Shown here: positions 2,060 through 37,850 of the stretch, piece after piece | Layout: each line of letters opens with the position of its first letter | Position numbering within the stretch: position 1 is the first letter of the stretch | Assembly: GCA_964016885.1 (NCBI GenBank) | Contig: OZ024748.1 | Span: 14,446,001-14,510,000, forward strand | Direction: 5' to 3' | Length of the DNA: 64,000 nt | Source of the DNA: Eledone cirrhosa | Lineage: Eukaryota | Made by a program: the position numbers and the translations under genes | Notes under the pieces: generated by a model | Database searches by the model: none | What the model was told of the DNA's origin: nothing | What the model saw: the letters and a program-made list of their open reading frames with translations, nothing else

Positions 2060-2530
2060 GAAAAAGGATGAAGTTTTGTACATGTATTTAGTATTTTATT
2101 GTATATCAACCTGTTATTTGCATTTCACAGAGGTTTGGGTCAGGGTCACCCACAGAAGTTATGGACCCAACTCCATTTTCTCTCTCTCTCTCTCTCTTTC
2201 TCATATATATAAATCTATATGTGTGCGTGAGAGAGAGAGAGCCTGTAAATTAGCTGTTTGACAAAAAAGATGTTGGTAAAATAATAATCAGTCTTGCAAA
2301 AGTAAGTAATACGATGAATATGATCAACTAAATCTCTTCAAGATAATGTTCCATTATGACCATATTCTAATGACTGAAGCAGTAACAGCATAAAAGTGTG
2401 TGTGTGAATTTTGGAGAAACAAAAAAGTTTCTAAATGAGATACTGTCAAAATATTGTTCTGTATGTAAAAATTTACATTAATATGCCATGAATTGAATAA
2501 ACATTAGCCAATGTTGGTTTACAAACAATT

Positions 2531-3318
2531 TAACCCCTTTTGCTACCAAACATGCCCTAAACTCACCCTAGTTCTATGAAAGAAAACCACTCGTTTTCAT
2601 AGATTCCTATTAATATTTAAATCTTCCAGTATAATTTTACATACAAACATTTTATCAATTTATGTTACCAATGCCATCTTGATAATGAAATAATAATTTT
2701 AGTAAATCTTATGAAATTCTTCATTAATTATTTCAAATGCTGTGTATTTAATTAGAAATCTACCAAGGAAAGGGTGAACAAAACAGGAACATTAATATTT
2801 TCAGCTTTGGTTTAATCCTTTCCTTACCATATATCAAATGAAAAACATGGCCTATGATTTACAAATAATTTTGAAAATAATCACAAATTTGGAGTGATTT
2901 AGTAGTATAACTAACTTTCTCATTACTAATCTTCTGTTTATAACATAACTTCACAACATTTATGAAAAATTATGATGGAATGTTTTGAACTAAACATTAC
3001 CTGTTTAATCTTTTGTTACTATGTTTCTAATGAAAAACACTCTCCTACCATTTACAAATAATTTTGAAAAAAAAGCAAGAATTTGGAGAGGTTTAGTAAT
3101 CATATTATATATCTAACTTTCTCATTATTAAGTTGGTGTTTGGAAGTTTTTAGTTGACCTAGAGGTAGGTATTAGATGTGGTGGAGATCCTAGTCTGGGG
3201 TTCAATCCTAGGTGGGAGCTACACATAGGGGTCTTAGTTAAATATAAATGTTTTAAAATAAATAGCTTTGTATTACAGAACCAAGAGTGGTTTCAGGTAG
3301 ATTGTTATCTAAAGGTTA
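2531..3318. mobile_element. Cluster of degenerate TTAA-flanked MITE copies (piggyBac-like family 1)
   Basis: TTAACCC(C)TTTT starts and AAAGG(G)TTAA-like ends with a shared core (catatttctaatgaaa...tttggagggatttagtaatataactaactttctcattattaag); related copies at about 9251-9513, 26231-26480, 35670-35880, 49079-49220, 57230-57490, 58266-58400, 62819-62900. Confidence 0.65.
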
Positions 3319-3376
3319 AATAAATAGGTGGGATGAAAAGGAAGACACAAATAACAAAATAAGAAAAGCTTCGCAC

Positions 3377-3706
3377 CTGCATGTGAACACTGGGAAGATC
3401 CTTTCAAAATGTTATTACTGTTGAGACATAGCAATGCTTTGTAAGCTTTTCCCTCTCCACAAATTTTCTGTTCCAAAGATTCTTCATCTGTTGGTGATTG
3501 CATCTCTGGGCCATGAGGTTTAAATGGGGAAAAAAAGCGTGATGTGTCAATTTTATCTGCCCGAGTGGCTTTGTTTGGTCCTTCAATGATGCACTCTGAG
3601 ATATTACCGATAACTATTGGTTTAAAGGGGTCACATCGGCAGAGCTTTTTCTCGAAGAGAAGATATTTCAAACGGTCCTTACACTTTGAATTATACTTGC
3701 TTTTAC
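3377..3706 (-). CDS. THSD7A: THSD7A/B-like exon (330 nt, phase 1-1), last visible exon
   Basis: ctcctAG acceptor, GTgcga donor; GKSKYNSKCKDRLKYLLFEKKLCRCDPFKPIVIGNISECII...CGEGKAYKALLCLNSNNILKGSSQCSHAG; aligns with recalled human GKSKKKEKCKNSHLYPLIETQYCPCDKYNAQPVGNWSDC...CGQGYRYQAMACYDQNGRLVETSRCNSHG. Confidence 0.92.
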
Positions 3707-3789
3707 CTAGGAGGAAAACAAATATATACAAATAAATACAAATCAAGAGAATGTTTAAACAACAAAAATATGTTGGTGCCACTTTAGCG

Positions 3790-4450
3790 TGCAGTCTATC
3801 TGGTATTTACAGTTCAGTGTGTGGTCTACCTGGTTGTTTACAGTTTAATGTGTGGTCTACCTGGTCGTTTGTAGTTCAGTGTGTGGTCTACTTGGTATTT
3901 ACAGGTCAGTATGTGGTCTACCTGGTAATTTGTAGTTCAGTGTGTGGGCTACCTGCTCATTTACAGTTCAGTATGTGGCCTACCTGGTATTTACAGTTCA
4001 GTGTGTAGGCTACCTGGTTGTTTACAGTTTAATGTGTGAGGTCTACCTGGTTATTTACAGTTCAGTATGTGGCCTAGCTGGTTATTTACAGTTCACTATG
4101 TGGTCTACCTAGTTATTTACAGTTCAGTATGTGGCCTATCTGGTCATTTACAGTTCAGTATGTGGCCTATCTGGTCATTTACAGTTTAATGTGTGTGGTC
4201 TACCTGGTCATTTACAGTTCAGTATGTGGTCTACCTGGTCATTTACAGTTTAATGTGTGTGGTCTACCTGGTCATTTACAGTTCACTATGTGGTCTATCT
4301 GGTTATTTATAGTTCAGTATGTGGTCTATCTGGTCATTTACAATTTAGTGTGTGGTCTACCTGGCCATTTATAATTCTGCATGTGTTCTAAGTGGCATTT
4401 TACAATTTATCATGTGGTCTACCAGCACATTTACAGTTCAGTGTGCAGTC
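3790..4450. repeat. Minisatellite, about 31-bp unit (atgtggtctacctggtcatttacagttcagt), about 21 copies
   Basis: Head-to-tail degenerate repeats with no unique spacers. Confidence 0.9.
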
Positions 4451-5850
4451 TGCATCAAATATGAAAACTAATCTTAACCTGGTAGCAAAGGTCAGATTAT
4501 TACACATCATAAGACTATGTATACTGTAGTAGACTACATAGTAAAGCAGCACTGATACTTTACAGAGAGAAATTTAAATGAAACATGTAACTCAAACTTA
4601 AAAAACACAAATTTCCTTATTAATTTTGATATCAAGATATATATAGTGTGTGTGTGTGAGTGAATATGGTCATAATAGTTGTAGTGTTTTATCTCATTAC
4701 CATATGTTTTAGTTTTACACCTGTTGTAGAGTTTTGTCATTTTTATACAAATAATAATAATGACAACCTCCCTAATAAGGTCCTTTCAAATTAGATTGTC
4801 TACACAGATGACATCATGTTACTTAATGTTACTTCACACAATAAAGTGGACATTTTCTTTTACAACATCCCTTGGAATTTTGAAGATAAATCAAATTACA
4901 TCTTATATAGAAAATCTTGTTATGATGCTTGCTTGAAAATACTTTATTCTTTTCTAAATAATGGTTTCTAAATTTAGGCACAGGGTCAGCAAATCAGGAG
5001 AATGAATAATATGTTTAAGCCGAAGTTTTAGACAATTTCAAGAACGAAAGAAGTGAAAAAAAAAAAAAAAAATACAAACACATGAAAAATTTCTGTAGCA
5101 GATCTTTCACCTGAATTATCAACAATATAAGACTGATTTCATTTATTTCATCTTGAAGATATAATTGACCATCATAGAGAGATACCGTATTTTCTTGTGT
5201 ATAACATGAGAAAATACATACTAAAATTAAAATAAAATGATGGAGGGTGGCTGGGAATGTTATTATACATGAGTATAGAAAGTTTCCCTGCATTTAAAAA
5301 TAGTAATTTCTAATAGCAAGATTACAAATACATGTTGATAACATTTATTTACAAAGAGCCTTTGATATATCAACAATATTTGTTATTTGGAAATCAGTGT
5401 AGTTGAATGTTGTTTGTCTCAAAGATAGGAGGAAACTGATGAAATATATAAATGAAATAAATATAAGCTCTGATATGTTTTGATAACATGAAAAACTGAA
5501 TATCATGCGATATATATATATATATATATATACATATATATCGACAGTCAATCAACAAGATTCCAGAGCTCATTCACTTAATGTCAGATCTGACCAAGGA
5601 AACAATGTTTCCATTGGTCTTTCCAATTGATAATACTATCTGTCGGTCACAAATCCAGGCGAAAGGAGCAACCTGAAATAAAGTGTCTTGCTCAAGGACA
5701 TAACGCATCACCAGGTAAGGAATCAAAATCACAACCACACGATTGTAAATCCAATTCTCTAACAGCTCAGCCTTCATAATTATGTGTATGTGTCTATGTG
5801 TGAAATCAAGATTTTGGTGGGTAACATAGTAAAATATGCCAGCCTTAACA

Positions 5851-10735: not shown

Positions 10736-11077
10736 ATGAAGCCCTGCATGTCTAATCCCTGCAAAGCTAACCCCTCCAAGGATAACTCCTGCAAGGCTAC
10801 TTCCTGTAAGGCTAACCCCTCCATAAGGCTAACACCTGCAAAGCAAGCCCTTGCAAGATTAATCCCTGTAAGGCTAACACCTGCAAAGCTAACCCCTGCC
10901 AGGCTAACCCTGGCAAGGCTAACCCCTGCCAGGCTAACCCCTCCAAAGCTAACCCCTCCAAGGCTAACCCCTCCAAAGCAAATCTCTGCAAAGCAAAGCC
11001 CTGCAAAACTAATCCCTGAAAGGGTAACCCCTGCAAAGCAAACCACTGAAAAGTTAAATCCTGCAAGGCTAAACCCT
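10736..11077. repeat. Minisatellite, 15-bp unit (gcaaggctaacccct), about 22 copies
   Basis: Visible directly; explains the PARLT-repeat and LAGVS-repeat ORFs in the track. Confidence 0.9.
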
Positions 11078-18726: not shown

Positions 18727-18932
18727 CTAAATAAGAAACATAAATACATATATATATCTATCTAGTCCTGTAGAAGTCATTTCAGTATATACATATACAC
18801 ACACACATATCTATATACATATATACACACACATATATATATGTGTAAAAGGCAAAAAGAAATAACAAAGCAAACAACACACTACAATGAAGAAATATAT
18901 TATTAGTTTTATGCTTGATATAGTAGGAAAAG

Positions 18933-18968
18933 AGTCAATGTTTCAGGTCTTAATCCTTCATCAGAAAA
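18933..18968 (-). ncRNA. Degenerate minimal hammerhead ribozyme motif (PLE-type)
   Basis: Minus strand: CTGATGA AGG-ATTAAGA-CCT GAAAC ATT GACTC, followed by the same tail as the 22019 and 29868 copies (ttcctactat.tcaagcat). Confidence 0.55.
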
Positions 18969-19134
18969 TATAAAAGAAAATTAAAGAATAAATAGAGACT
19001 CAAGGAAAAAAAATATTTTTCATTTTAGATTACTTTAAACTCCATTTATTGTATATTTTCTATAATGCCGGGGTTGTTTTTATATTTGAACTCAGAGCGA
19101 GTTATATAATTCTTCTTGTCAAGAAAGAATCACT

Positions 19135-19400
19135 GGACAGATTTTATGGGGAAAACCAACCGATGAGAGACCCAGGTATGCTGGGGAAAAACCAACCGAT
19201 GAGAGACCCAGCAAGATGGTTAAAATAATATCTATGAGCTCAGGTGGTGTCACTTGTGAATCCAGCCAGATGAATTGGAGATGGTTGCTTCTGACAGGAC
19301 CCACTGGAAGGAGTGTTTGTAAACTCTGCTCCCACAACCGTCCCAGGAATGAGGAGCAGGAGGAGGGGGGAGAGGAAGAAGGAGAAGAAGAAAACAACGA
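19135..19400 (+). mobile_element. Degenerate RTE-like LINE 3' fragment with an internal 35-bp duplication
   Basis: ggggaaaaccaaccgatgagagaccca occurs twice; GRP-like region, then an (AGG/AAG) tail. Confidence 0.45.
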
Positions 19401-20392
19401 ATCATACACTAGGGGTTTAGTCTTATTGACTGTGATGCTGTACCAAAGTTAGTTAAATAAGGTGAATGTAGAATGTAGTGATGTAACAATATGTTTTAGA
19501 GAAGTGTAGTCACGTTGATAATACACACAGTGTGCTATATTGAGTAAATCAATATACTTAGTTCAATAATTCAATTTCAGTTTATGTTCAGTAAAATATG
19601 TCTATAGACAAAGGATATTATCTGGCTCCTATGAGAGTTTTCATGTGTAAAAAATCCCTCATCATAGTTATAGCTCAGAGTAATACACTGTGTATTTCAG
19701 GCAATAATCTTTACAGAAGGATAAATTTCATGGTTATAAATATTTGTCTTGTGTTCCTGGACTCACTAAAATCAATTTTCCCTTCATTTGACTATTAAAT
19801 GATGACCATTTTTAACTGACCGACTGGTTTTTGAAGTTTCACTGTCAACTCATCCATGCATGATTACACACATTTTATAAAACACAATTTTTCACATTGT
19901 AATCATTAGTTTTACATCCATTTTTCTATCCATGTTGGCAATGTCTGAATGGATAAATAAACATGGATCTTGTACATTGTATTTTATGAGGTTTTAGCAA
20001 CTTCATAACACCAGTTAATATGATAACATAGTCTGGCTCTATTTATTGGAATTAGAAGTAGACTGCATTTTAAAACAAAGCCGTGCATCCAAGCAATACT
20101 GATGAACTGACTAACAGATGACTGAAGCCAGATCTGTTTTCACATCGCATCAAAGGTGGCACTGACATACAGACTCCTGACTACTGGGGACCAGATGTAT
20201 CTTTTCATTGCTCAGCTAAGGTGACACTGACTTACTTATTGCTGAGTGACAGAGGGTGTTTTCATTGCTCAGCTAAGGTGTCTCTGACTTACAGATCCCT
20301 GAAGGCCAGAGACATGTTTTCAGTTTAGCCCTTTTCTGATAATTTCCATTGAATGAAACAGTTCTAGCTCTTTAAAAGCCCTTTCAATATTA

Positions 20393-20399
<7 letters not shown>

Positions 20400-20485
<86 letters not shown>
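20400..20485. repeat. (TA)n microsatellite
   Basis: Visible directly. Confidence 0.95.
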
Positions 20486-20488
<3 letters not shown>

Positions 20489-20503
20489 TCACACACACAA
20501 GAA

Positions 20504-20692
20504 ATCCCAGTAGAAGGAAGACCACGGAAAACATAGGTGGATGTGGTGAAAGCAGCCTCAGATTGCTGAAGCTCATGGAGGAGATGACGATGGACCGTAA
20601 CAAGTGGAGAGATGCTGTGCTGGATAGGAGCCATCCCACCCTGGCAAGCAGGGAAAAGCGGACGTAAAATGATGATGGTGATGATGATGATA
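20504..20692 (+). mobile_element. RTE LINE 3' end (ORF2 C-terminus plus short 3' UTR and (GAT)n)
   Basis: RRGRPRKT*VDVVK...MTMDRNKWRDAVL, then cccaccctggcaagcagggaaaagcggacgtaaaatgatgatg. Confidence 0.8.
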
Positions 20693-21085
20693 TATATACA
20701 CATATATATATATATACATATTTATGTAGTCCTCTCAAATTTGAATTGTGCAAAGCTACATGAGAGCTGAAGAAGTTAGATGATGTTTGTGTGATCTTAT
20801 CTTGTTAATTTTCCCCATTTTCTTCTTTTGCTCCGCTTAAACTTCTGTCTGCTGATTTCTGTTCATCTGAGGTAAGATTTTACCCAACACCATCATTGGT
20901 GGCATTTTGCTGTCTTAACAGCTATTCTTGTGTTGAAATTTTCCCATTATTCTACGAATTCTAATCCAGTCATGCCTCTACTTGATCTTCAAGAGAACTT
21001 TATATATATATATATATATATATAATACAAGTGGAAGCTTACTAAAATCGAAGCTTTGGCTGTGGGCAAGCTAAGTCGACCTACA

Positions 21086-21126
<41 letters not shown>

Positions 21127-22018
21127 AGTCTGTGTATAATACACACAAACCTTTATTCCCCACAATCTCCGACTATATTTTTTCACAATATGTATTTGTC
21201 TTCTCCCCTGCTGCCAATATGTTCTGTAGTTTCTTCAACAGTTTCTAACCAATAGAAAGCAGATCAACAAGAACAACAAGAAAGCTATCTTCACTTATGT
21301 TATGTGATAATGATTGAATTCCTGCATAGCTTTTCATAGATCACTTAAGGACACTTGTGTATAGAGAAATAAGAAAACCGTTATTTTCATGCCCTGGAAG
21401 ATAACATCGTACAAGTTTTCCTGTAGAAATATTCTGTTCATCATTTGATTTATGTATTCATAACATTTTAATTCTCTCTCTTCTCCTGGCTTTTGGGCAG
21501 GAGATGGAGTGGGTTTCAGCAATAAAATACACACAGAAGACAACAGTATTTGAGAAAAGCACAAAAAGTACAATATAAATGAAAGGGTTAATATTTAAGA
21601 TTTTCACAATGGGTTCTGTTACTAAGGTATTATGTGCAGAAACAAGGCATTGCAAGTGCTGGTTTAACTTGTTTTAATCTATTTTATTTTACTTTATTGG
21701 TCTCAAGCATTATTTTATTTTATTGGTTTAAGACTAAGGCTATGCAGGAGTACTGCCTTTGTTTATTCAATCATATCAACCCCAGTACTTCTTTTTTCAA
21801 GCTGGTGCCTATTTTACAGATCTCTATTTTGTCTAACCCCTAATTTACATGACATAAACATAGACACACATATAAATACAGATAGACACTCATGCACACA
21901 CAACACACACACATATGTATACATATATATTGGCTGACTGAATACATACGTGTTTTTTTTTGTTTTGTTTTTTTTGTTCTTCCTCTTCTCACTCTCTATC
22001 TTTGTATTTTTTTTTATT

Positions 22019-22060
22019 GAATCTTCTAATGAAAGACTAGTGCCTGAAACATTAAGACTC
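22019..22060 (+). ncRNA. Degenerate minimal hammerhead ribozyme motif
   Basis: GAATCTT CTAATGA AAGACTAGTGCCT GAAAC ATT AAGACTC; stem I GAATCTT/AAGACTC pairs at 6 of 7 positions; core mutated. Confidence 0.5.
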
Positions 22061-22332
22061 TGTTCCTACTATTTCAAGCATTATACTAATATATTCCTTC
22101 ATTGTTCAGTGTCGTTTGTATTGTTATTTCTGCTTAATTTTTACATACATACATGCATATATATATATATACACATATATTTTGAGTATATGTTGGTTGT
22201 TTACCGACACCTCAGTATGCAGATTGGAGCACTCGACGAAGTACGCAGGTTGGTTTGTTTACTCCGGAGCAATGTAAAATAATTAAGTCAAATAGGTAAA
22301 ATTTGGCTTCGTTTATTATCAATTATAGATAT

Positions 22333-22387
22333 ACTGCTATATATATTTCGGTGACAGCCATCATTGGCTGTGACGTCTTCAGGCAGT
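22333..22387 (-). ncRNA. Type I hammerhead ribozyme candidate
   Basis: Minus strand: ACTGC CTGAAGA C-GTCACAGCCA-ATGA-TGGCTGTCAC-C GAAA T-ATAT-ATA GCAGT. Both core motifs, 5-bp stem I, stem II with 9 of 11 pairs, minimal stem III, AUA triplet. Confidence 0.75.
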
Positions 22388-22789
22388 CCAAATTGGTGTG
22401 GTAGAGACAGGTACACACGTTGTTTAAGTGTGTTTTACTCCGTCAATACTCAAATATGTCCAGCTCCCGGTTACGTTGTTATTTCTCTGAGGAACTGGAA
22501 TCATCCAAAGCCAAATTTTACCTATTTGACTTAATTATTTTATATATATATATATATATGTGCATACATACATGACGGGCTTCGGCAGAATTCCACTCAT
22601 AAGGCATTGTTCAAGCCAAGGTTATAGTAGAAGTCACTTGCCCAATGTGTTGCACAGATGAACTGAACTCAAAACCACATGGTAGTGAAACAAACTCCAT
22701 AATCACATGGCCATGCCGACACCTGGAGATTTTTAATTTAGAATTTAACAAAATATTTTGTCACTTTTTTAAAACTCTTTTATACTAAG

Positions 22790-23266
22790 CCACATGAAGC
22801 CACTCCTGGTTCTATGATTCAAAGCTATTTATTTGAATCTGTTTATATTTATCTAAAATTCTTCCATTTTGATTTAAAATATAAACCAAATTTAACCCTT
22901 TAGCATTTAAACGAGTCATATCCGGCCAGAATTCTCTCACCTCTCTCTGTTTAAACTGGCTGTAACCAGCCACTTATAGTTATGTTAAAGTATTCTTCTG
23001 AAAACAAATAATATCAAAATCTCATAGAGTCAATATTATGCGAGATAAATATGTGAAATAAAGTGTTTACCATGAAAATACAATAGTAAATATAGAGTAA
23101 TGTAAATGCTAAAGTGTTAAGTTATGCTCTAAATACCAACCTAATAATAAGAAATTTAGTTAAATTACCAAATCCCTCTAAATTCTTATTTTCAAAATTA
23201 ATTGAAAAAATAGTCAATGTTAAGAAATACAGAATGAAAGGGTTAACACTAAAAATTTGTCCTGGT
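22790..23266 (-). mobile_element. piggyBac-like MITE family 1 copy interrupted by a family 2 MITE
   Basis: Family 1 sequence continues across the insertion at a duplicated TTAA and ends aaagggTTAA. Confidence 0.7.
22892..23120. mobile_element. piggyBac-like MITE family 2 (TIR CCCTTTAGCATTTA, TTAA target-site duplication)
   Basis: TTAA ccctttagcattta ... taaatgctaaagtg TTAA; homologues at 38281-38508 and, inverted, at about 60992-61160. Confidence 0.8.
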
Positions 23267-23394
23267 TTTAATGTCTTATAATTCCTTGCCAATGTTTATG
23301 GAAGCAAAAAGTGTGATAAGACGAGGGATAGTGTTTTATAGGGTAAATGGCGCATGACTGCATTTACGCATTTATGAAAGATAGAAAAATGAGA

Positions 23395-23690
23395 GAGGGT
23401 GAGTTGTGTGTATGGAATGTGTAGTGTGTGTGTCTGTGTATTGTGTGTGTATATGAGAATTGTATTGTGTGTTGTGTTGTATGTAAGTGTTGTGTTGTGT
23501 GTGTTGCGTTGCATTGTGTGTGTTGTGTTGGGTTTGTGAATTGTGTACGAGAGGGAGACACATAAAGACAGACAAAAACTGTTTTGAGAGATAGGATGTG
23601 GGAATTTGGTGAGAGACAAGAAAAGATTTGCGTATGAGAGAGAAAGACACACACACACAACTATACACAGGTACACACATACACAAAATA
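23395..23690. repeat. GT-rich low-complexity repeat
   Basis: (TTGTG)n-like and GAGA-rich units. Confidence 0.75.
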
Positions 23691-24164
23691 TGGTTATAGA
23701 ACTTGGAATAATTTTATCGATTATATTTGTTTGTCCCATGTATGGTTTCGTTGAGATAGCCATTTCTCTATTGTCAACACAAAACCCCAAATTTAGCTGT
23801 TTAATTCTATTGAGGTTGTCAGGTCTGACTGAAAGATAGGAGTGATTGAAGACAAATAGCAAATATTTACAAACAGACAAATAATCAAAATTACAATTAT
23901 TTCATGAAATAACACTGTATATATAAATATATATATATGTGTGTGTGTGTGTGTCTGAGTGTGTGTGTCTGTGTGCATGTATAGTGGGATTCCCAATTTA
24001 TATAGGGAGGTGAGCACAGTAACAGTTGAAAAAGGTATTTAATATGTTAGTAGAATATAGACATATTTATTTTATTATAGAAATAAGTTCTACAGGACTA
24101 GAACTTTTCATTCTTACAAATGAATTCTAGTTTTGTAGAAGTCATTTCTATAATATATATATAT

Positions 24165-24470
24165 TGTGAAGGCATGTGGATTTGTGGTTGGGAATTTGGC
24201 TCATGATCATAATATCATGAGTTCGATTCTTGGTGATACACTGTGTCCTTGAGCAAGACATTTTCTTTCACGTTACTCCAGTTCACTCAGCTGGTAAAAA
24301 TGAATTGTACTTGTAATTCGAAGAGCCAGTCATGTCACATTCTGTGTCAGGCAGAATTTTCCTGAGAACTACGTTAAGGGTATGCGTGTTTGTGGTATGC
24401 TCAGCCACTTGCACGTTCATTTCACGAGCAGGCTGTTCTATTGATTGGATCAACAGGATATCATTGTCAT
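24165..24470 (+). mobile_element. tRNA-derived SINE family D (Meta/CORE-like centre)
   Basis: Head gaaggcatgtgg...gagttcgattc, centre tgtgtccttgagcaagaca...ctccagttcactcagctg, tail gctcagccacttgcacgtt shared with 57500-57620 and 62900-63010. Confidence 0.65.
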
Positions 24471-27445
24471 GTAGCAGCATAGTGGGAATATGCAAAGCCA
24501 TGGAGATTGTATGATGTTAATGACCTGTTATATGTTTTGTCAAAGAAATGTGTGGACTGTGTAGTGAGAAATTCAGCCTTAGGAATTTTCTTTGTGTAGT
24601 TTGAGCAAAACTATTTAGGAGAAGATGATGCATAACTTAGTGAAGTGGATGAATAGCTTGTGAAGGGGATGTATATTGTGAGATCTGTGTTGAGGGCTCT
24701 ATATACCCAGACAGTGGCTCTGACTTCATACAGAATTATAACTTTATATATTATATACCATACTCTGTAGTATTCTAAGTTCTTGTCATTTCCACAAGAG
24801 TGTCAGTTACAAAGCTTGGCTAGATGTTGTTCTGCCACAGCTGAACACATTGCTGTCCTTTTTCATTAAACTCTGCCAAGCCCAATCCTGTGCAGGGGTG
24901 TTCCAGTAGGGGGCATACCAGAAGGTACTGCGTAGTGGTTCGATGCTGCAGTTACACACAATGTCCCCATCCTTTAAATATCCCCCATTTGCAAGAGTGA
25001 CCTTTGCATGGCCAACACCAGATCTTAGTCTGTTTAGGCATTTTCACACTACATAGTTTGTATCTGCTCCAGAGAAGTGAGATAAGACATATTTTTCTGA
25101 TGGCTTCTGTCTGGCTGATAAACATATAAGAGTGGTTCAAATACTGTGTGCCTCGACAAACAGCTCTGAGATATAATTAGGGTGCAGCAAAAGAGACAGA
25201 TGCTATTTCAAAATGTGAAAAAAATCAATTTGAAATTCATAATATAATTATTATGTGAATATGGAAAACCGCTAAACTAAAAATAAAATCATTGCCAAAG
25301 AAAAAAAAAAAACGATGCATGTTTGTCATTAAAATCTTTTCTCCATTTATTAAGTAAAGAAGGAGGGTCAAATAATTTTTTAATATTTTTCCTTATCCAT
25401 ATTTCGTCTTTACAAATAATTCTTTAAATAAATTTTTTTAATTTAGGTACAAAATGCACCTATATATTTTTATAAAGCCAACAGAAAAAGCCTTCTGTTG
25501 TCTTTCGAGTTGGAGAAAAGAGATAAGCTGGAAGCCAGGAGGTGAAGATGGGCAGTAATTTGGCCACCATCAGCAAGAGGGTGGTATAGCTGAAGGTTGA
25601 AATACCCAATGAATATTTGACACCACCTGAAGTTATCAATGCCTCCTGGCCAAGTCTATGTTCACAGAAGGGGAATAAATGTGTGACATATTCTAGAAGA
25701 TGTAATTATTCTTACGTGTTCTGTGCACCACTTACATAACATATTCTTGGACTCCCTAGATAACTTATATATTATTGATCTCAATATAATATATTCTAAA
25801 ATGGGAACTACTGGCATAAAATATTCCAGTTTCATGTAACATGTAAGTAGATGCTAGTGCAAAATTCAAGCATCTGGAAATGAAAAATATTTTTCCAGGA
25901 AAATGTCCGAATTTGCAACTATAGCAAAAATATATTGATAAAATAAGCTAAAAAAAAATGAAAACATTTGAAGACATCAACTGTAGAAGTGGGAAATTTA
26001 ATTAGCATTTAGTAATTAGTTTAATTGGTAATTAGAGGTTACCAGCATCTTAGCTAAGACCATATTCTAGCAGTAATATTTCTAAATTGTAGGAATATAT
26101 AGTAGTAGCGAGATTAAACTGAATATTCAAATTTGCATTAATTCAGTCAATCTTAAATATTTTTTAAATTCATTTTACATTACTTCTTATCTCAATACCA
26201 TGACCAATCATAATGAAATCTTCAGCTAATTTAACCCTTTCAATGACCGTATTTCTAATGAAATACAATCTATTTTAATTAAATAATGAAGAATTTTTAG
26301 GGATTTAGTAAAATTATTAATTCATTAGTAAGATTGTAATTTAATATATTGTTCTTTTATAAAATTATATTGGAAGATTTTTATTTCATTTTAAATAAGA
26401 ACCCATTAGAATGGGCAGTTTTGTTTCATAGAATCAGAGCCATGTTGGTCTGGGCTGTCGGTATCAAAACAGCTAATAGAGAACAACTAATCAAAGCCAG
26501 CCCTACTAGAGATAGCGAGTACAACTATCATATTTATTTAATGTAACCTACACTACAGGAACAAACTAATCACACATATTCTCAAGTATGTCAATGTTTA
26601 AGTACTTTGTCAAGATCAATAATAGATAGGAGACTAATCAAAAGTGATGTCCATACACTTCATCAGTTATTACAATTAAATCATTGTCATCATCAACATC
26701 ATCTTCATCATCCTCTGTGTAAATAATTCTGGAAAAAATATGTCAGGATATTTATAAGGCTAGCATGTTCTTTTTGTGTTTTACACTTTCATTTAATTAC
26801 TATTTTCAGCCACTAGTCTATGGCCATGCTCAAGAGACATCAGGATTTAGTTGATCATATCGACTCCAGCTCTTATTTTCTTCAAGTCTTATACTTATTT
26901 TATTGATCTCGTTTTTTATCAAACAGCTAAGTTACTGGATACAAACGCATGTATATAAATGAACACACACATTCACAGATACATAAAACCGTTAATGTTT
27001 CAATCTGTCCACAAAATACTGAGAAAACACCCTTAACCAGCACGGACTGCAACAGCCATTAAATGACAAAGACGGATGTGATCAAGCTACAGCTGTCATA
27101 TTACATAGTTTCTTCAATCTCTCTCTCTCATATATATATATAACATGTCCTCACTTACTTTATATATGTGCGCCAGTTGCCTATAGGTTTGAGTAGGGAG
27201 CAGTAAGTGATTATTGTTGCAAAACGCAGTGACCTCACTTTAGACTATAAATATTTTACCCTTTCTGAAGAAGCGCAATATTTTTACGTAATGCTTGCGA
27301 TTGAGCATGGGACTATGCAATCAGTGCTAGTAGACTAATATTGCACAGAAACATATGTTAAGGAACGAACTCTAAATCAAAATTTCTCCTTCTAACCACT
27401 TCTTCTTTCCTAGTCTTTCGTTTTCCCAGGTACTATACCTATAAC

Positions 27446-27513
<68 letters not shown>

Positions 27514-28279
27514 TGCTATTGCAGTTTCTGCCAACCAAATTACAACATCAAGGCACTAATCAATCAGAAGCTATGGTAGAAGACACATTCTTAAGGTCCT
27601 AATCAATTGGACAGAACCCAGAATCATATGGTTGTGAAACAAACTCTTTAAGCACACAGTCATGCCTGTGCATGTATTACTAGCAATAATCACAGAAACT
27701 ACAGATGAACTACAGCATTTGGAATTAAAATTACAGAAAGGTGGCCCATTGGCAGTGTCATTAAGGGATTATTTGAATAAATGCCTCAGTATTTGTTCTG
27801 ACTCACTGCACTCAAATCTAGTAAAATTCCTCTTTGCTTTCTATCCTCTTGCAGTCAATAAATAAAGTACCAGTCAAGTACTAGGGGTTGGTGCTTCATT
27901 AACAGGCACTTACTTTGTCAAGTTTAAAATGTCCAAGACATGCCATATATAAGGAGAGTCCCTATGACTCCATCACAAATTAAGGAGTCTTCCCTTCTTT
28001 TCCCTCAGTTACTGAGTTATGTCCTAATGTCCTTCCCCCACATCCTTATGCTGGTTGGTTGACAACAGATATCATCAGTTGGCAATAAACACTACTACCA
28101 TGGTTGCTTAGCAACAGGAAGAGATAATAATCTGGAGAAAAAAAAATACATTTGCTCCAATGTTAACAAAAATACTCAAGAGTTATGATTGACTGAAGCT
28201 AATCTCCACACCAAGATGGCAAAAATGAGAGGGGGAGAAGAAGAAGATGGACAAGACAGAAGTGAAAGGGGAGAGGGAG

Positions 28280-28687
<408 letters not shown>

Positions 28688-29675
28688 GGCAGAGGGAAAG
28701 CGAAATTGTGTCTCTGTTCATAACTATGGAGATATTTTGAGAATCTTTCGAAATGTACTTAGAATATGCAATCCATAAATGTTATTAATAAATTATCTGC
28801 TGCACCGAAGAAATACTTTGCAACTTAATATTTTGAATGTTAGCAAAAGATGCGTTTAATATCGAAATATATTTATTTCAGAAAGATATCATGTTGACAG
28901 AATTGTTACAAGATGGAAATTTGATCAAAAGCATGACATGTAGTCCTGACTATGAAAAATAATTGTTTTCTATCTGTGGAGAAAGAGAAAGATGTTTTTT
29001 TTTGCAGTGAAAATGTTCAAAGAATGTTGTCTTATCATTTAGCAAATGAGGAATTTTAATAACTATAAATAATGTGCTACAGCCAACATATAATAAATCT
29101 TATTCAGAAGATATCTACCTCCATTTGAAGAAAAGCAGATAATAAATGATATGGAATTGGCTACTAATTAGTGTGCTATGACTTAATGCTGAAGATCATT
29201 AAAATTTTTATGTACTAAGGACATACTTATAAATCATATCTTCCAGAATGTTGGTATTTTCACTAATTAATGAACAAAAAGGAAAAGAAATAAGCTGATC
29301 ATCAGATCAGACCAAGTAACCCATGTTACCATTGGTCTTTCCATTGTTGATACAATCTGATGGTCGCAATTTCTGGAATATATCTCCTTTGTGATCCTGT
29401 CTCTAATGTTGTACTCCTGAAGAAGGGCGAAAACCCAACACATCAAACTTTTTTTCTACTTTTTTCATACAAAGCATGAAACTATTAAGACTTTTGAATT
29501 TCTGTTTATTGTATCTTTGAACTCATCATCATCATCGTTTAACGTCTATCTTCCACACTAGCATAGGTTTAGACGGGAATTGTCCCATGTGAGGCAAGAT
29601 TGGTTGTCTTGCTCGTATAGGACTGTCTGGTGGGTTTTCTACGGCTGGATGCCCTTCCTAACACCAACCATGTTT

Positions 29676-29731
<56 letters not shown>

Positions 29732-29769
29732 TATATATATAGTATATATATATATAGTATATATATATA

Positions 29770-29810
<41 letters not shown>

Positions 29811-29867
29811 ATATATATATATGCTATATATATATATATATATATATAAATATATATATACATTCTT

Positions 29868-29903
29868 TCTTCTGATGAAGGACTAGCTTCCGAAACGTTA
29901 GGA
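29868..29903 (+). ncRNA. Minimal type I hammerhead ribozyme motif (PLE-type, probably dimeric)
   Basis: TCTT CTGATGA AGGA-CTAGC-TTCC GAAAC GTT AGGA; palindromic ACGT stem III, GUU triplet, stem I UCUU/AGGA; starts a few bases after a TA array. Confidence 0.65.
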
Positions 29904-30182
29904 CCCTCTTCCTGTTATTTCAAGCATTAACCCAAACTATTCCTTCCATATACTGAACCAATTGTGTCGTTATTTCTGTTGACCTTTCACATATATACAT
30001 ATATATATAAAAAGGAGAGAATAGTTACATTGGATTAAAGAATGAATGTCTCCACAGTAGAAACTATCTGCTGGTCACAACTTCTGGCAGAAGGAGATGC
30101 GACTTGAACTCAATGCAAACAGCATGACCAGATAAGACACTGGTAAGAAAAGGGTCATTGACACAAGATTATTATTTCTTTT

Positions 30183-30368
30183 TGGGTTGGCAGTAGCGGT
30201 AGAGGGTCGGACGCCATGCTATCATGCGTAGAGTTACGGCCCTTGCCATTCTGAGTTTAAATCCCGCCAAGGTTAACTTTGCCTTTCATCCTTACGGGGT
30301 CGATAAAATAGAGTACCAGTAATGCACTGGCGTAATTTCTGGCCTTGTGCCAAAAGTAGAAACAATTA
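30183..30368 (+). mobile_element. SINE family A copy
   Basis: Matches family A; inverted partner at 30905-31096. Confidence 0.85.
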
Positions 30369-30515
30369 TTTCTTTTACATTGTATACAGTTGTAATAATT
30401 CCTCCTTTAAATCAGGTTTAGCAGTTACCAGACATTAAGGCTTCAAATACAGTTTAGATTCTATGAAATAGAAATATCCAACAGATTCAAATATTCGGTT
30501 TATATATATATTTAT

Positions 30516-30842
30516 GAAGGCACATGGCTTAGTGGTTAGAGCATTGGCCTTGCAATCGAAAGGTTGTGAGTTCAATTCTCAGACCGGGTGATGTGTTGTT
30601 TCCTTGAGCAAGAGACTTTATTTCACATTGCTCCAGTTTACTCAGCTGTAGAAATGAGATGATAGGACTGGGGTCCCTATCATTCCACTGCAAAGTGGAT
30701 GTGTAGGTGCCATGGAAAAAGCACCCAGCACTCACTGTAAATGAGGTTGGTGTTAGGAAGGGCATCCAGCTGTAGAAATCAAGCCAGAATCAGTTCCAAG
30801 CAGGGAAAAGCAGACGTAAAATGATGATGATGATGATGATGA
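30516..30842 (+). mobile_element. SINE family B (tRNA head, Meta/CORE-like centre, RTE-derived tail, (GAT)n)
   Basis: ggcacatggcttagtggttagagc (A box), gagttcaattc (B box), ttccttgagcaag...ctccagtttactcagctg, tail gcagggaaaagcagacgtaaaatgatg. Confidence 0.88.
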
Positions 30843-30904
30843 ACATAAATAATATAATATATATTATATATATATGTGTTTATGTTTATGTATGAACATA
30901 AACA

Positions 30905-31096
30905 AATAATTGTTTCTACTTTTGGCACAAGGCCAGCAATTACCCAGTACATTACTGGTACTTTATTTTATCAACTTCGTAAGGATGAAAGGCAAAGTTA
31001 ACCTCGGTGGGATTTGAACTCAATTCGTAAAGGGACGTAACTATGCTGGGAAGCATGGCGTTCGACCCTCTACCGATACTGCCAATTCACCGCCCT
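30905..31096 (-). mobile_element. SINE family A copy
   Basis: Reverse complement of the family A consensus. Confidence 0.85.
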
Positions 31097-31112
31097 TAAA
31101 CATAAACAAATA

Positions 31113-31256
<144 letters not shown>

Positions 31257-31607
31257 ATTGTTTTTAAAAGGTTTTTAAAATCCAACGTCAATAAATACAC
31301 CAGGATTTTTTCATTCTGATGATTGAAAGCAACATTTTTTTGCTTTTAAGAAACCACTGGTAAATGAAATTATTGCCTTATGTTGTTTATTACATAACTA
31401 TATTTATATATATATAAATTAGATGAGATTAACTTAGTAGAGAATTGCCAAGGCAAGAAGATTTAAAGCTCAAGGTGTATGTATGATATTATTTTATCAT
31501 TTTAGTATGACGTGAGTATATGGAAATTGAATCCATATACAAATTTCACAAGCATGAAAACGAAGGTGAAAGGTGACAATGAATGTGTGTGTGTATATAT
31601 ATATATA

Positions 31608-32292
31608 TGGATGTGTAACAGTAATATACGTGAACGGCAAAGCATAAACGAACTAAGGAAAAAATTAGAGATAAGAGGGATCAGATGTTGTTTACTCGAG
31701 AGAAGGCTGCGTTGGTATGGACACGTGATGCGCATGAAAGTCGATAGCTGTATTACAAAGTGCAGGGCAATAAAGATAGACGGTAGCCACGGAATAGGCA
31801 GACCTAGAAAAACATGGGATGAGCTGATAAACTCCGACCTCACACACTTACACCTCTCCAAGACAATGTCACTGGACCGTGACCTTTGGCGGTACTCAGT
31901 AACAGAGAAGACCCGCCTTGCCAGTAGGCATCTCTAACAAACTACACCCCGTCCCGCCACCACCCCCACCCCATCCACACCACCCCGTTCCATGTAAAGT
32001 TATGTTGGTGCCGCGCCATCCAGGCCGAAACAAACGAGATCGTGTAGGTGTCACGACAAAAAAACACACAGTCCACGCTGTAATGTGGCCGTTTAGGCAA
32101 CACGGTAAAAACCTCCCAGACCCACACTGTAAATGTGGTTGGTGTTAGGAAGGGCATCCAACTGTAGAAAACCTGCCAGACAGTCCTATGCGAGCAAGAC
32201 AATCACTCTTGCCTCAAGTGGGACTACCCCCGTCCAAACCCATGCAAGCGTGGAACACGGACGTTAAACGTTGATGATGATGATGATGATGA
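31608..32292 (+). mobile_element. RTE-clade LINE 3' fragment (ORF2 C-terminus, 3' UTR, (GAT)n tail)
   Basis: WMCNSNIRERQSINELRKKLEIRGIRCCLLERRLRWYGHVMRM...GIGRPRKTWDELINSDL...DRDLWR; LRWYGHV and GRPRKTW are typical of the RTE C-terminus. 5'-truncated at a TA array. Confidence 0.9.
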
Positions 32293-32482
32293 TATATATA
32301 TATATATATACACACACACACCCTTGACTGTATGCATGTTGGTAGAGTGTAATGTCACTAATGTTTATTTATGATGTGTTCAGGAAATAAATTTCTTTGT
32401 TCAATGATTTGAGAATGAGTCACTCACACAAAGAGAAAAAGAGAGAAAATGAACGAGAAAGGAAAGTAATAATATATATATA

Positions 32483-32830
32483 TCATCATTCATCATCATC
32501 ATTTCATTTAACGTCCACTTTTTCCCTGCTTGCAAGGGTGGGACGGGAACTGATTCTGGCTTGATTTCTACAGCTGGATGCCCTTCCTAACACCAACCTC
32601 ATTTACAGTGAGTGCTGGGTGCTTTTTTGCCGTGGCACCTCCACGACCACTTTGCAGTGGAATGATAGGGACCCCAGTCCCTATCATCTCATTTCTACAG
32701 TTGAGTAAACTGGAGCAATGTGAAATAAAGTGTCTTGCTCAAGGAAACAACACATCACCTGGTCTGAGAATTGAACTCACAACCTTTTGATTGCAAGGCC
32801 AATGCTCTAACCACTAAGCCATGTGCCTCC
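32483..32830 (-). mobile_element. SINE family B copy
   Basis: Near-identical to 37512-37850 and 63524-63862, and inverted relative to 44221-44566. Confidence 0.9.
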
Positions 32831-33020
32831 ATATAAATATATATATACATCTATATATAATTATAAATAAGGAAGGAAATGTGGTAAGGAACCATAACAC
32901 ACCAAACTACTCAATACTTAGGGTAGTAGAATGGGTAAGAGGAACAAGAATTAGCTGTCGAAACGGCTTGAGCGCTGCCGTCGCGGTCATACTTGTTCCT
33001 ATAATTATAAATATATATAT

Positions 33021-33107
<87 letters not shown>

Positions 33108-33386
33108 AATATATATGTATAGATATATATACATATATATATATATTTAAATATAAATTTATATGTATATACATATATACATATATATACAAATATAAAT
33201 TCATATGTATATACATATATATATATATTCATATATATATATATAAACTTATATGTATATACATATATATAAATATAAATTTATATGTATATACATATAT
33301 ATATAAATATAAATTTATATATATATACATATGTATATATACATATATATATATATACATACATATATATATATGTATATATATAC

Positions 33387-33417
<31 letters not shown>

Positions 33418-33895
33418 TTTTGATGTACAGTTATAAATATATATATATGTATGTGTGTGTGTATATATATGTGAGTGTGTTCTTGTATATAGATACATAT
33501 ATGTATGTAATGTATGTATGTGTCATGTCTTTCTCACGGAGATGTTCTTAACACATTTGAATTATTTGAACTTAATGACTACTTAGTGAAAATGACACAA
33601 GATAGCAATGGAGTAATGAAATATAGCAAATACAGTCGACTTTGCTGAAATTTATGCTTCTGCTTAATAATAAAAATCACTAATCATTGAGACTTGTGAG
33701 AGTGAATAAATCAAACTTTGTCATACAGACATATACTGAAACACTATATACAATATACACAAATGTACAGTATATACATCATGTACAATATATTTTATTG
33801 GCGAGTAAAATCAATACTGAAATATTGTTGGAGAATAAGTGTCATAGCTTACATCCTCTTTATTTCTCTTGTATATTTACTATTTACATTCCAAC

Positions 33896-34710
33896 TATAA
33901 TAATAATAATAATGAAATTATTGAGTACAGTGTTCAGGTGCACTACAACTCATCAAAGGTGCATGTATAGTACATAGAATAAGGTACAAATGTCAGGAAA
34001 GTGAACAGTTTATGAGTCATGATATACACACAGATATATGCGTGCTTTTGTATGGAGGCGGAATATCAGGTGTAGTGTTGGCGAATTTCAGGAAGCATGG
34101 AGGCTTTGAAGGACACAGTGTCCTGACAGCTAACAACCAATGCAGGTAGTTTGTTCGATGCTTCAGCAACTCTTAGCATGAAAGTATGTTTCTGAAAGTC
34201 ATGGAAGCTGTGCTGTTTTCTGACTTTGTAGGCATGCCCATGGGTGTTAGACACATGGAATTGAAAAAGGTGCTCAAAGTTTTTGTTGGCAAGGTGGTTA
34301 ATAATTTTGTGAGTATTTACCAAATCAGTTGCCAGACATCGGAGTTTCAATATATCCATGCCCAGAGAAGCAAGGCTTTCAGAGTATGATAGTACCATGC
34401 CTTGTAGAGAGTATTCGCTTGGTTTCACATCTCTGAACAGTTTCCAGGAGGTCAATATTCTGTGCAAGTTATGGGTTCAAGATTGGTGGTGCAAATTCTA
34501 AGTGTGGCCACAACATAGCTATATACAGCTTTAAATAGATAACTAGAGAGTGGCTGACAAAGGTCTTACTGAGTGATGCCAAGACACCCTCAGCCTTCTT
34601 GATAATTTTAGAGATGTGCCTTGTCCAATGAAAATCACTGCTGACAGTAATGCCTAGGTCACATTCACAAGAAGACTTCTTGATATTAGTGTTATGGAAG
34701 GAGTATGTGG
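33896..34710 (-). mobile_element. CR1-clade LINE 3' fragment, degenerate
   Basis: CECDLGITVSSDFHWTRHISKIIKKA...LKLYIAMLWPHLEFAPPILNP and SYSESLASLG...DLVNTHKII...THGHAYKV...RVAEASNKLP...SFK resemble the CR1 ORF2 C-terminus; (ATT)n tail near 33896. Confidence 0.88.
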
Positions 34711-34837
34711 ACACGGGTTATTTTTATTGTAGCATATATACCAGATATACATATCTATTTATCTATATCTATCTATCTATCTTTCTAAATCTATTTCTCA
34801 CTGTCTCCCTCTATCCCTCTCAAGGTACATGTACATA

Positions 34838-34869
<32 letters not shown>

Positions 34870-34978
34870 GTAAATTTGTATTCCAATGTTACTAAGTAGT
34901 TGTATTGGATGGAGTCAACCGACATCGGAGATTGCTCAACGTATAATAAAGTGTGTTTTAAAATCCGGAGAAAATATG

Positions 34979-35056
34979 GAGAAGAAGTTTATGAAATAGA
35001 AATGCGGGTATAAAGAATTCTTTATACCCGCATTTCCATTTCATAAACTTCTTCTC
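34979..35056. repeat. 78-bp palindrome, 1 mismatch, centred on GAATTC
   Basis: gagaagaagtttatgaaatagaaatgcgggtataaagaa|ttctttatacccgcatttccatttcataaacttcttctc. Confidence 0.95.
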
Positions 35057-36069
35057 TCTCTCTATATATATATATATCAGGATTAAACCAGTATTAAACT
35101 AATCAGACCATTATTCAACAGAGTACTCGATAGTAGAGTGTAACTATATTAGAAAGAGATGGGGCCCGATAGGATTAGCTATCGAAACATCAAGATCTGA
35201 GGTGTCATCAGTATTAATAATGTGTGTATGTGTGTGAGAGAGAGAGACCACTAAAGCCCCTATCTTTAAAACACCTGAAAAACCTCTTATGAGAAACTCC
35301 CTTGTAAGAAATATTGCATAATAGTGAACTCTAAATTTCAATTCATTTCTCTTCTTTTTTTCAATGACTTTTCTAATGATTTAATTAATTTGCTGAGTAA
35401 AATGTAGAAACAATAATTGAGAAAAGATTAAATATCTGAGTAATTGATTGATTGGTAATTCAGGGTCATATCAATAATCTCTATTGATCTACTAATATTA
35501 GATAAAACATTTCATTTCTCTCTCCCTTTGGTGGCTTCTTCTACAATAGACAGAAGATGAAATAAGCTTCTGTCTAAGTAATAGTGTTGAATTTCATTGA
35601 TCTCTCAATGTCAATCTATGTAGGAATATGTGTATGGTATAGTTGTCTTATCTTTTCTTCCTCTCATAATGTTTTAACTCTTTCATAAACTCATTTCTAA
35701 TGAAATACACTATACTTCAATTAATTAATTAAGAATTTGAAGGATTTACTAAAATTATTGATTATTTTATTACTAAATTAGTAAAAATAATGTAAGGTTC
35801 GTATATAAAATTATGTTGGAAGCTTTTAATTTAAATTGGAAAACTTTAAAATGGGTGACTTTATTTCATAGAATAAGAATGGAAACATCTTTCTCCTCCT
35901 CCTCCACTCTGTCTTTCTTTTGCTTGTACATATAGACATATATTTCTCTTGCTTATGTACATAGTTAATGAATGATCTCTGTCACCACCAAAGTCCTGAA
36001 TAAATGTGTTTTATTACTCTAGCACTTACTGTCACTCTTCGTCTCCCTTTCTCCCTCCTCTCTTCGTTC

Positions 36070-36265
36070 CTATATCCTCTCTCTCTGCTATCTCACCCTC
36101 TCTCTATCCTATCTCACCCTCTCTCTTTCCTATATTCTCTCTCTTTCCTATCTCACCCTCTCTCTTTCCTATCTCACCCTCTCTCTTTCCTATCCGACCC
36201 TCTTTCTTTCCTATCTCTTCTCTTTCTTTCCTATCGCTCCCTCTCTCTTTCCTATCTCACCATCT
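36070..36265. repeat. Pyrimidine-rich minisatellite, 21-bp unit (cctatctcaccctctctcttt)
   Basis: Visible directly. Confidence 0.85.
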
Positions 36266-36534
36266 TTCCTACCTCCTCTCTGCCCCTCTATCATTTTACC
36301 TGTAGTATATTTTTTCAGATACCAGACTGCTATAATTTTTTTGTGAAAAGAGTGTTTTTCTTACATGCAAGACAAATTCTCAAGAGAAATCCAATGGTCT
36401 TCTATTAAATCAAATATACAGTTATTAAGAACAAGTCCAGTATTTCTATATCTGTTTTACAACAACCTGGACAATACCAAGTCAATGTCAGGTAATCTGT
36501 TTGTAGAAAAATGACTGGTTGCTGTTACACTTAC

Positions 36535-37511: not shown

Positions 37512-37850
37512 CATTTTCATTCATTTCATTTTACGTCCACTTTTCCCTGCTTGCAAGGGTGGGACGGGAACTGATACTGTCTTGATTTCTACAGCTGGAT
37601 GCCCTTCCTAACACCAACCTCATTTACAGTGAGTACTGGGTGCTTTTTTGCCGTGTCACCTCCACAACCACTTTGCAGTGGAATGATAGGGACCCCAGTC
37701 CCTATCATCTCATTTCTACAGCTGAGTAAACTGGAGCAATGTGAAATAAAGTGTCTTGCTCAAGGAAACAACACATCACCCGGTCTGAGAATTGAACTCA
37801 CAACTTTCGATTGCAAGACCAATGCTCTAACCACTAAGCCATGTGCCTCC
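37512..37850 (-). mobile_element. SINE family B copy
   Basis: Full-length reverse copy ending aagccatgtgcctcc. Confidence 0.9.

What the first reader, a model, noticed from the sequence alone, without database searches (positions are those of the whole stretch)
22177..22542. Hammerhead ribozyme cassette enclosed by perfect 35-bp inverted repeats inside a TA microsatellite
Seen: a 365-bp island between TA arrays. It has perfect inverted arms (22275-22309 taaaataattaagtcaaataggtaaaatttggctt; 22508-22542). Between them the minus strand carries a complete type I hammerhead fold at 22333-22387: CUGAAGA and GAAA cores, stem I ACUGC/GCAGU, long stem II, 2-bp stem III with self-complementary AUAU loop, and an AUA cleavage triplet. 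A second core-like CTGAGGA plus a TGGA-ATCA-TCCA hairpin on the plus strand is cut off at the right arm. Known: minimal, often dimeric hammerheads mark Penelope-like elements and retrozymes, and PLE insertions often have inverted terminal segments. Inference: remnant or mini-element of a TA-targeting ribozyme retroelement. The ribozyme is in sense with the THSD7 pre-mRNA, so it could cleave the 17.8-kb intron. The 10.1-11.1 pair is C-C, which may reduce activity.
Basis: partly seen in the sequence, partly recalled or inferred. Interest (0 to 1): 0.78.

Follow-up and report, generated by a model that had tools for sequence, protein, structure and literature searches.

The report
Truncated octopus Penelope-like retroelement with hammerhead
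This is the short, broken-off 3' end of a very common jumping gene (a Hydra-type Penelope-like retroelement) in an intron of a likely octopus gene; the hammerhead ribozyme motif is a normal part of the element and likely does little to the host gene, though the thousands of copies hint at how such elements copy themselves.

Summary
The arms and the hammerhead are real, but the island is not a ribozyme cassette with terminal repeats. Bases 22179-22504 (minus strand) are the last 326 nt of a high-copy Penelope-like element. Longer copies run into an ORF with the Hydra-clade motifs, and a younger sister subfamily has intact 892-aa RT/GIY-YIG ORFs. The 35-bp arm is a second, inverted 3' end lacking a 96-nt tail, as in 35 of 47 old and 45 of 52 young inverted copies sampled. 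The hammerhead is conserved between subfamilies. Its C10.1-C11.1 mismatch is a minor sub-lineage variant. The 'second core' is a junction by-product. Hydra-clade elements with hammerheads and (TA)n preference are published, including one octopus family, so this is a new member of a known kind. Family features I did not find in print: a 96-nt tail (published 30-40); about 30% of arms stop about 330 nt from the end, with no excess at the ribozyme cut; and (CT)n stutters at one end that follow the template. Cleavage of the THSD7A pre-mRNA is untested and unlikely to matter.

The parts
22179..22504 (-). 3'-terminal 326 nt (pLTR / 3'UTR end) of an older subfamily of a Hydra-clade Penelope-like element; 5'-truncated at the family's hot spot (TCATATGA site)
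   Evidence: 93-96% identical to dozens of genomic copies. Longer copies continue into a 3'UTR and a GIY-YIG ORF. Coordinates.
22179..22274 (-). 96-nt 'tail' between the short and the long 3' end; likely the stretch between two RT start sites; predicted 3' hairpin
   Evidence: Inverted arms stop 95-98 nt short of the full end in both subfamilies. 8 of 95 positions differ between subfamilies. Fold z about -2.
22275..22309 (-).
22333..22387 (-). Minimal type I hammerhead motif; predicted cut 22338/22337; C10.1-C11.1 variant
   Evidence: Sequence and fold; conservation; no Rfam hit
22505..22507 (.). 3-nt filler at the junction of the two arms; it creates the apparent TGGA/TCCA hairpin
   Evidence: Other copies continue differently at this point
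22508..22542 (+). Inverted 35-nt second 3' end of the element, ending at the family's short end and followed by (TA)n
22157..22178 (.). Short TA-rich target flank
22543..22559 (.). Short (TA)n target flank
18727..36534 (-). 17.8-kb intron of the host THSD7A-like gene; the element is in sense with it
   Evidence: tblastn of Octopus sinensis THSD7A (P0002): exons 36737-36534 and 18725-18603, about 80% identical. Splice sites.

Best explanation
The island is the 5'-truncated 3' end of a high-copy Hydra-clade Penelope-like retroelement plus a short inverted second 3' end, likely made when the element's endonuclease nicked both strands of a TA run and its reverse transcriptase primed two cDNAs at two start sites 96 nt apart. 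Shown: family membership, copy numbers, two fixed 3' ends, TA flanks, a fixed 5' stop about 330 nt from the end, conservation of the hammerhead. Inferred: the long cDNA ran from the tail through the uncut hammerhead to the likely 5' end of a short RNA at TCATATGA; the other cDNA stopped after 35 nt; the two were joined with a 3-nt filler. The hammerhead belongs to the element's pLTR and would need a partner copy or protein help to cleave. This copy is a dead passenger in the THSD7A intron.
For: Exact 27-mers of the tail occur 701 times (old) and 2081 times (young), controls 0. Nine of the 30 loci continue upstream into shared sequence, and the longest reach a CxCX5C / GIY-YIG / CxxC / CxH ORF. 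Young copies have intact 892-aa ORFs with RWK, DKT and YRDD, and their 3' end is about 80% identical to the island. These are the Hydra-clade features in PMC8557442 section 11. Inverted partner arms occur in 47 of 85 old and 52 of 68 young terminal copies and end at the short site in 35 of 47 and 45 of 52. A TA-type run follows the long end in 75 of 85. In vitro, a Poseidon PLE cuts both strands at AT-rich DNA, starts RT at two internal sites that bound the tail, and does not need hammerhead cleavage (PMC11167929). Arm 5' ends near the hammerhead cut: 0 of 132 old and 3 of 120 young. At the TCATATGA site: 39 of 132 and 37 of 120. The hammerhead differs at 2 of 54 positions between subfamilies against 26 of 117 upstream, p=0.0016.
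Against: No Rfam hammerhead hit. Two-sided compensatory changes are almost absent (one copy), so the fold rests on motif match and conservation. No tree with published Hydra proteins was built. The 4.1-kb unit is longer than the '<3 kb' given for the clade. One young copy (L311) has both arms starting exactly at the cut, and five ends in the BLAST-picked set lie 2-7 nt downstream of it, so cleaved RNA may sometimes be a template. Upstream pLTRs of long copies show no stop at TCATATGA (0 of 30), so that site is not simply the start of the mRNA that makes long copies.
Confidence: 0.93

Rival explanations
1. The 330-nt unit is a non-autonomous mini-element (SINE-like) with its own masters, and the fixed 5' edge is inherited from such masters, not made anew each time.
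For: Most copies are short. About 30% of arms stop at one site. The C10.1 sub-lineage shares linked variants (22425: 18 of 28 vs 3 of 50; 22295: 26 of 31 vs 9 of 57), so distinct masters existed.
Against: The same edge recurs in two subfamilies whose ends are about 80% identical, and in young copies 97-100% identical to ORF-bearing copies. C10.1 copies include long ORF-bearing ones (L002/L098, L004). Arms are mostly joined to each other with no flanking master sequence between them. This rival is compatible with the best explanation and differs only in the source of the short RNA.
Confidence: 0.2
2. A metazoan non-LTR retrozyme, or a MITE-like cassette with terminal inverted repeats that carries a ribozyme.
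For: Size about 330-365 nt, type I hammerhead, inverted arms. Retrozymes of 150-450 bp exist in molluscs (PMC7229834 passages).
Against: No tandem hammerhead-to-hammerhead repeats among the loci parsed. Arm length varies from tens of nt to kilobases between copies and one arm is internal, unlike TIRs. The unit is the 3' end of an ORF-bearing PLE.
Confidence: 0.02
3. A host-useful ribozyme that cuts the THSD7A pre-mRNA inside the 17.8-kb intron.
For: Sense orientation in the intron. Core intact. Stem I and distal stem II are predicted to form inside the loop closed by the 35-bp arms.
Against: One of thousands of neutral copies, with about 8 private changes in 326 nt. The monomer's 2-bp stem III costs +1.9 kcal/mol. 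C-C at 10.1-11.1. No second copy in the 64-kb window. The lone minimal S. mansoni hammerhead was inactive and the PAc hammerhead needed its protein.
Confidence: 0.03

Closest known systems
Hydra clade of Penelope-like elements (Craig et al. 2021, PMC8557442), including Hydra-1_Obim of Octopus bimaculoides
   Same: Single ORF with C-terminal GIY-YIG; RWK, DKT, CxCX5C linker, CxxC and CxH; no CCHH; sense hammerhead near the 3' end; (TA)n insertions; 5' inverted copies. Mismatched 10.1-11.1 positions (often U-U) and A at the cut site are common in its File S2.
   Different: A different family: hammerhead stems and RT motifs differ from Hydra-1_Obim as printed. ORF 892 aa with two low-complexity insertions against about 700 aa in most homologues. 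Unit 4.1 kb with a 1.4-kb 3'UTR. Tail 96 nt against the 30-40 nt given for PLEs.
PAc, Poseidon element of Anolis carolinensis (Frangieh et al. 2024, PMC11167929)
   Same: Two fixed 3' ends bounding a tail, AT-rich targets, hammerhead apparently uncut in the templates that integrate.
   Different: Other clade. There the hammerhead overlaps the ORF start and the tail lies in the ORF; here both lie upstream of a 56-nt 5'UTR. No fixed 5' stop or end stutter was described in the parts I read.
Minimal PLE hammerheads (Cervera and de la Pena 2014, PMC4209133)
   Same: Short stem I (5 bp), long stem II, palindromic stem III region suited to a dimer, mostly found as single motifs in truncated copies.
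   Different: That paper reports a highly conserved G10.1-C11.1 pair. The family has it (71 of 91 old; G-U in 35 of 38 young), but this copy carries the C-C variant (3 of 91).
Metazoan non-LTR retrozymes (PMC7229834)
   Same: Type I hammerhead in a repeat of about 300 nt.
   Different: Retrozymes are tandem, non-coding units; this is the end of a coding PLE, in single or inverted copies.

Membership tests
EN+ Penelope-like element | Single ORF with RT and GIY-YIG endonuclease | tested here: met
   892-aa ORF in the young subfamily and broken ORF upstream of old-subfamily ends. Pfam GIY-YIG E=5e-4, just under cut-off, on the EN piece; no RT or EN Pfam hit on the whole ORF.
EN+ Penelope-like element | Partial tandems (pLTR) and 5' inverted copies | tested here: met
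   28 of 30 copies with the 5'UTR have the tail directly upstream; inverted partners in 47 of 85 and 52 of 68
EN+ Penelope-like element | Tail extension at one end (published 30-40 bp) | tested here: met
   Present but 96 nt long
Hydra clade | RWK, DKT, CxCX5C linker, CxxC and CxH around E and N, no CCHH | tested here: met
   Read directly in the ORF and in its alignment with 12 of the 43 homologues, against PMC8557442 section 11
Hydra clade | (TA)n insertion preference and 3' hammerhead | tested here: met
   75 of 85 old long ends; 54 of 62 young opposite flanks; hammerhead core intact in 67 of 91 and 30 of 38
Hydra clade | Phylogenetic placement with published members | not tested
   Published proteins were seen only as cut supplement text; no tree built
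Hydra clade | Generally under 3 kb (descriptive, not diagnostic) | tested here: not met
   4128-nt unit
Type I hammerhead ribozyme | Core CUGAnGA / GAAA / UH with stems I-III | tested here: met
   stem III only 2 bp as a monomer
Type I hammerhead ribozyme | Rfam covariance-model match | tested here: not met
Type I hammerhead ribozyme | Compensatory changes in stems | tested here: inconclusive
   Stems nearly invariant; one-sided G-C to G-U at 10.1-11.1; one two-sided change in one copy
Type I hammerhead ribozyme | Self-cleavage | not testable with these tools
   Needs an in vitro assay
Non-LTR retrozyme | Tandem non-coding units bounded by hammerheads | tested here: not met

The most novel reading that the evidence does not exclude
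This young, ORF-intact Hydra family records PLE replication in its copies. There are two template classes: a short RNA starting at TCATATGA that floods the genome with ~330-nt hammerhead-bearing stubs, and an endless template (a ribozyme-made circle or a read-through RNA) that gives long tandem copies with no 5' stop. Its telomerase-related RT also stutters on a 2-3 nt template at the start of synthesis, adding (CT)n and by extension (TA)n, so the element builds microsatellites as well as targeting them.
Probability: 0.25. Interest if true: 0.7.

Novelty: new member of a known kind. Interest (0 to 1): 0.33.

Why it matters
The single insertion is ordinary. The family is useful. How PLEs form tandem and inverted structures, why they prefer microsatellites and what their hammerheads do are stated as open in PMC8557442. 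Here thousands of near-identical copies with intact ORFs give exact, testable predictions: two RT start sites 96 nt apart, a short RNA with a defined 5' end, mostly uncut hammerheads in templates, and template-dependent (CT)n addition. If the stutter is made by the RT, it links a PLE RT to telomerase-like repeat addition and to the TA-rich make-up of this genome.

Tried and rejected
Rfam scans: no hammerhead. My own strict descriptor missed the motif, because two of the first four stem II positions are C-C, and gave two chance hits elsewhere. The plus-strand second ribozyme was rejected. The TIR/MITE and retrozyme readings were rejected (arm lengths vary, one arm is internal). 'TCATATGA is the start of the full mRNA' was rejected: 0 of 30 upstream pLTRs stop there and 12 are longer than 340 nt. 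'It is an intrinsic RT stop' was rejected for the same reason (17 of 50 vs 0 of 30, p=1.3e-4). 'ATAT microhomology alone' is unlikely, since the longer AT run in the hammerhead holds only about 5 of 132 ends. No RNA holder listed; this says nothing on expression. Laying three contig sets of one sample showed very high summed depth on the island and loose TA ends at 22275, but no contig spanned the insertion, so presence or absence of the empty site was not resolved. A DNA search with the young tail returned nothing, probably because very common words are skipped; a pattern count replaced it. One search translated the wrong side of a locus and gave nothing. Earlier scan notes: none found.

Full report
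1. Observation. The arms at 22275-22309 and 22508-22542 are identical over 35 nt. Constrained energies show the 2-bp stem III is unfavourable (+1.9 kcal/mol), while the AUAUAUAU palindrome can pair between two copies (-3.2 kcal/mol). Rfam finds no hammerhead at gathering score or at E<=10. The flanking TA runs are short and not called by TRF. The host gene is THSD7A-like on the minus strand, with exons 65-97% identical to the Octopus sinensis protein, so the genome is inferred to be an octopod's. The intron runs 36534 to 18727.

2. What it is. The first 328 nt of the island are a high-copy repeat: of 3000 candidates 40 were scored, and the best matches were 90-96% identical over 307-366 nt. 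An exact 27-mer of its end occurs 701 times, control 0. Nine of the 30 loci fetched continue beyond 22504 into shared sequence. The longest reach a broken ORF with RT and GIY-YIG motifs. An RT fragment found 21778 candidates, 150 scored, with open frames up to 896 aa. Of 12 stretches fetched, two hold complete 892- and 891-aa ORFs from a Met start, and ends matching the island at about 73-80% lie in 11 of the 12. This young subfamily's end 27-mer occurs 2081 times. The ORF shows RWK, DKT, YRDD, CxCX5C, CxxC and CxH and lacks CCHH. These are the features given for the Hydra clade of Penelope-like elements (PMC8557442 section 11). That paper's supplement lists an octopus family, Hydra-1_Obim, with a different hammerhead. 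A protein search gave 43 homologues, nearly all unnamed, 31-55% identical.

3. The inverted arm. Distances d are counted from the element's 3' end. Copies have two fixed 3' ends, at d about 1-3 and d about 96-99, in both subfamilies. I took 90 of the 701 old matches in order along one contig, selected only by the end 27-mer: 85 were terminal and 5 internal (one more is probably internal, and two pairs look like duplicates). Of the 85, 47 had an inverted partner, which ended at d96-102 in 35 cases. In 70 of the 2081 young matches, 68 were terminal, 52 had a partner, and 45 of those ended at d98-103. A few 'partners' are fold-back pieces or split alignments and were left in the counts. The window copy is one such pair: a 326-nt arm with the tail, a 3-nt filler, and a 35-nt arm without it. 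PLE papers describe this layout with a 30-40 bp tail. In vitro work on PAc shows nicking and extension of both strands and two internal RT starts bounding the tail (PMC11167929). Applying this here is inference.

4. The hammerhead. Between subfamilies it differs at 3 of 55 columns (one an alignment gap artefact), against 26 of 117 upstream, 22 of 58 downstream and 8 of 95 in the tail (p=0.0016). So it is under constraint in the element lineage. Two-sided compensation is nearly absent. Position 10.1-11.1 is G-C in 71 of 91 old copies, G-U in 35 of 38 young copies, and C-C in 3 of 91. C10.1 travels with two other variants, so a master carrying it did spread. Mismatches at this position are common in published Hydra hammerheads. 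Arm 5' ends are not enriched at the cut: 0 of 132 old and 3 of 120 young, the latter about what an even spread would give by my rough estimate. Against this, young copy L311 starts both arms exactly at the cut, and five ends in a BLAST-picked set of 30 loci lie 2-7 nt downstream of it. The plus-strand 'second core' is not a ribozyme.

5. A fixed 5' stop. Arm 5' ends pile up in a 12-13 nt window at TCATATGA: 39 of 132 old and 37 of 120 young. The window copy ends there. Upstream pLTRs of long copies do not: 0 of 30, with 12 longer than 340 nt (p=1.3e-4). Of 30 copies with the 5'UTR, 28 have the tail directly upstream at a fixed junction. My reading (inferred) is a short RNA that begins at this site, beside a long template without a fixed 5' end, either read-through or circular. 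Drosophila Penelope has a promoter inside its pLTR (PMC2377424 passages), and circles were proposed in PMC4209133. No RNA data were available.

6. End stutter. In 18 of 68 young terminal copies, (CT)2-20 lies between the long end and the TA run, and none of the 17 with a readable opposite flank has CT there. The young template reads UCU at this start site; the old one mostly reads UUU, and only 2 of 85 old copies show the tract (p=1e-5). Host slippage of an imperfect TA array is the rival. Among other TA arrays preceded by a CT unit, 35 of 216 have two or more units, against 18 of 38 here (p=6e-5). That favours, but does not prove, stuttering by the RT.

7. Literature seen. PMC8557442: abstract, passages, sections 11 and 15, supplement search hits and part 2 of 59. 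PMC11167929 and PMC4209133: parts 1-2 of 4 (main text and part of methods). PMC2377424, PMC7229834 and PMC13282606: passages only; the last has no mention of hammerhead, ribozyme or Hydra in its main text. Searches listed nothing that, by title or abstract start, describes this family, a 96-nt tail, a fixed 5' stop or PLE end stutter. The library lacks most subscription papers and Repbase, and unread supplements could bear on this.

8. Verdict. A real feature and an ordinary dead insertion: a new family of the known Hydra clade (confidence 0.93). A role for the host gene is unlikely (0.03). Interest 0.33, carried by the family-level signatures and not by this copy.

Noticed in passing
Young-subfamily loci, e.g. 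L222, L312, L342 (long 3' end): (CT)2-20 tracts between the element end and the TA run in 18 of 68 copies, matching a UCU in the template; possible telomerase-like stutter of the RT.
   Followed up: partly
L245, L326, L336, L239 flanks: 11-14 nt target-site-duplication-like repeats are visible where the TA target has a marker, suggesting staggered nicks (read by eye).
   Followed up: no
L056:2419-5097; L057 (minus strand ORF 2382-5060): Intact ~892-aa Hydra-clade ORFs with two low-complexity insertions missing in most homologues; inverted arms 99.6-99.7% identical, so very recent activity.
   Followed up: partly
L083:989-1629: Several head-to-tail copies of a ~94-nt piece starting at the TCATATGA hot spot; looks like repeated template re-entry at an RNA 5' end.
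   Followed up: no
window 22889-23123: 21-nt inverted repeats that begin and end at TTAA, 193 nt apart; likely a piggyBac-type MITE (label recalled).
   Followed up: no
window 37785-37841 (-): Weak tRNA match (29.3 bits), probably the head of a tRNA-derived SINE; similar sequence at about 30529-30789 and 32554-32790.
   Followed up: no
window 10742-11077: 22 copies of a 15-bp unit inside a 180-codon open frame on the plus strand, within a THSD7A intron.
   Followed up: no
window 31500-31937 and 34066-34717: Open frames that look like fragments of LINE reverse transcriptases (read by eye).
   Followed up: no
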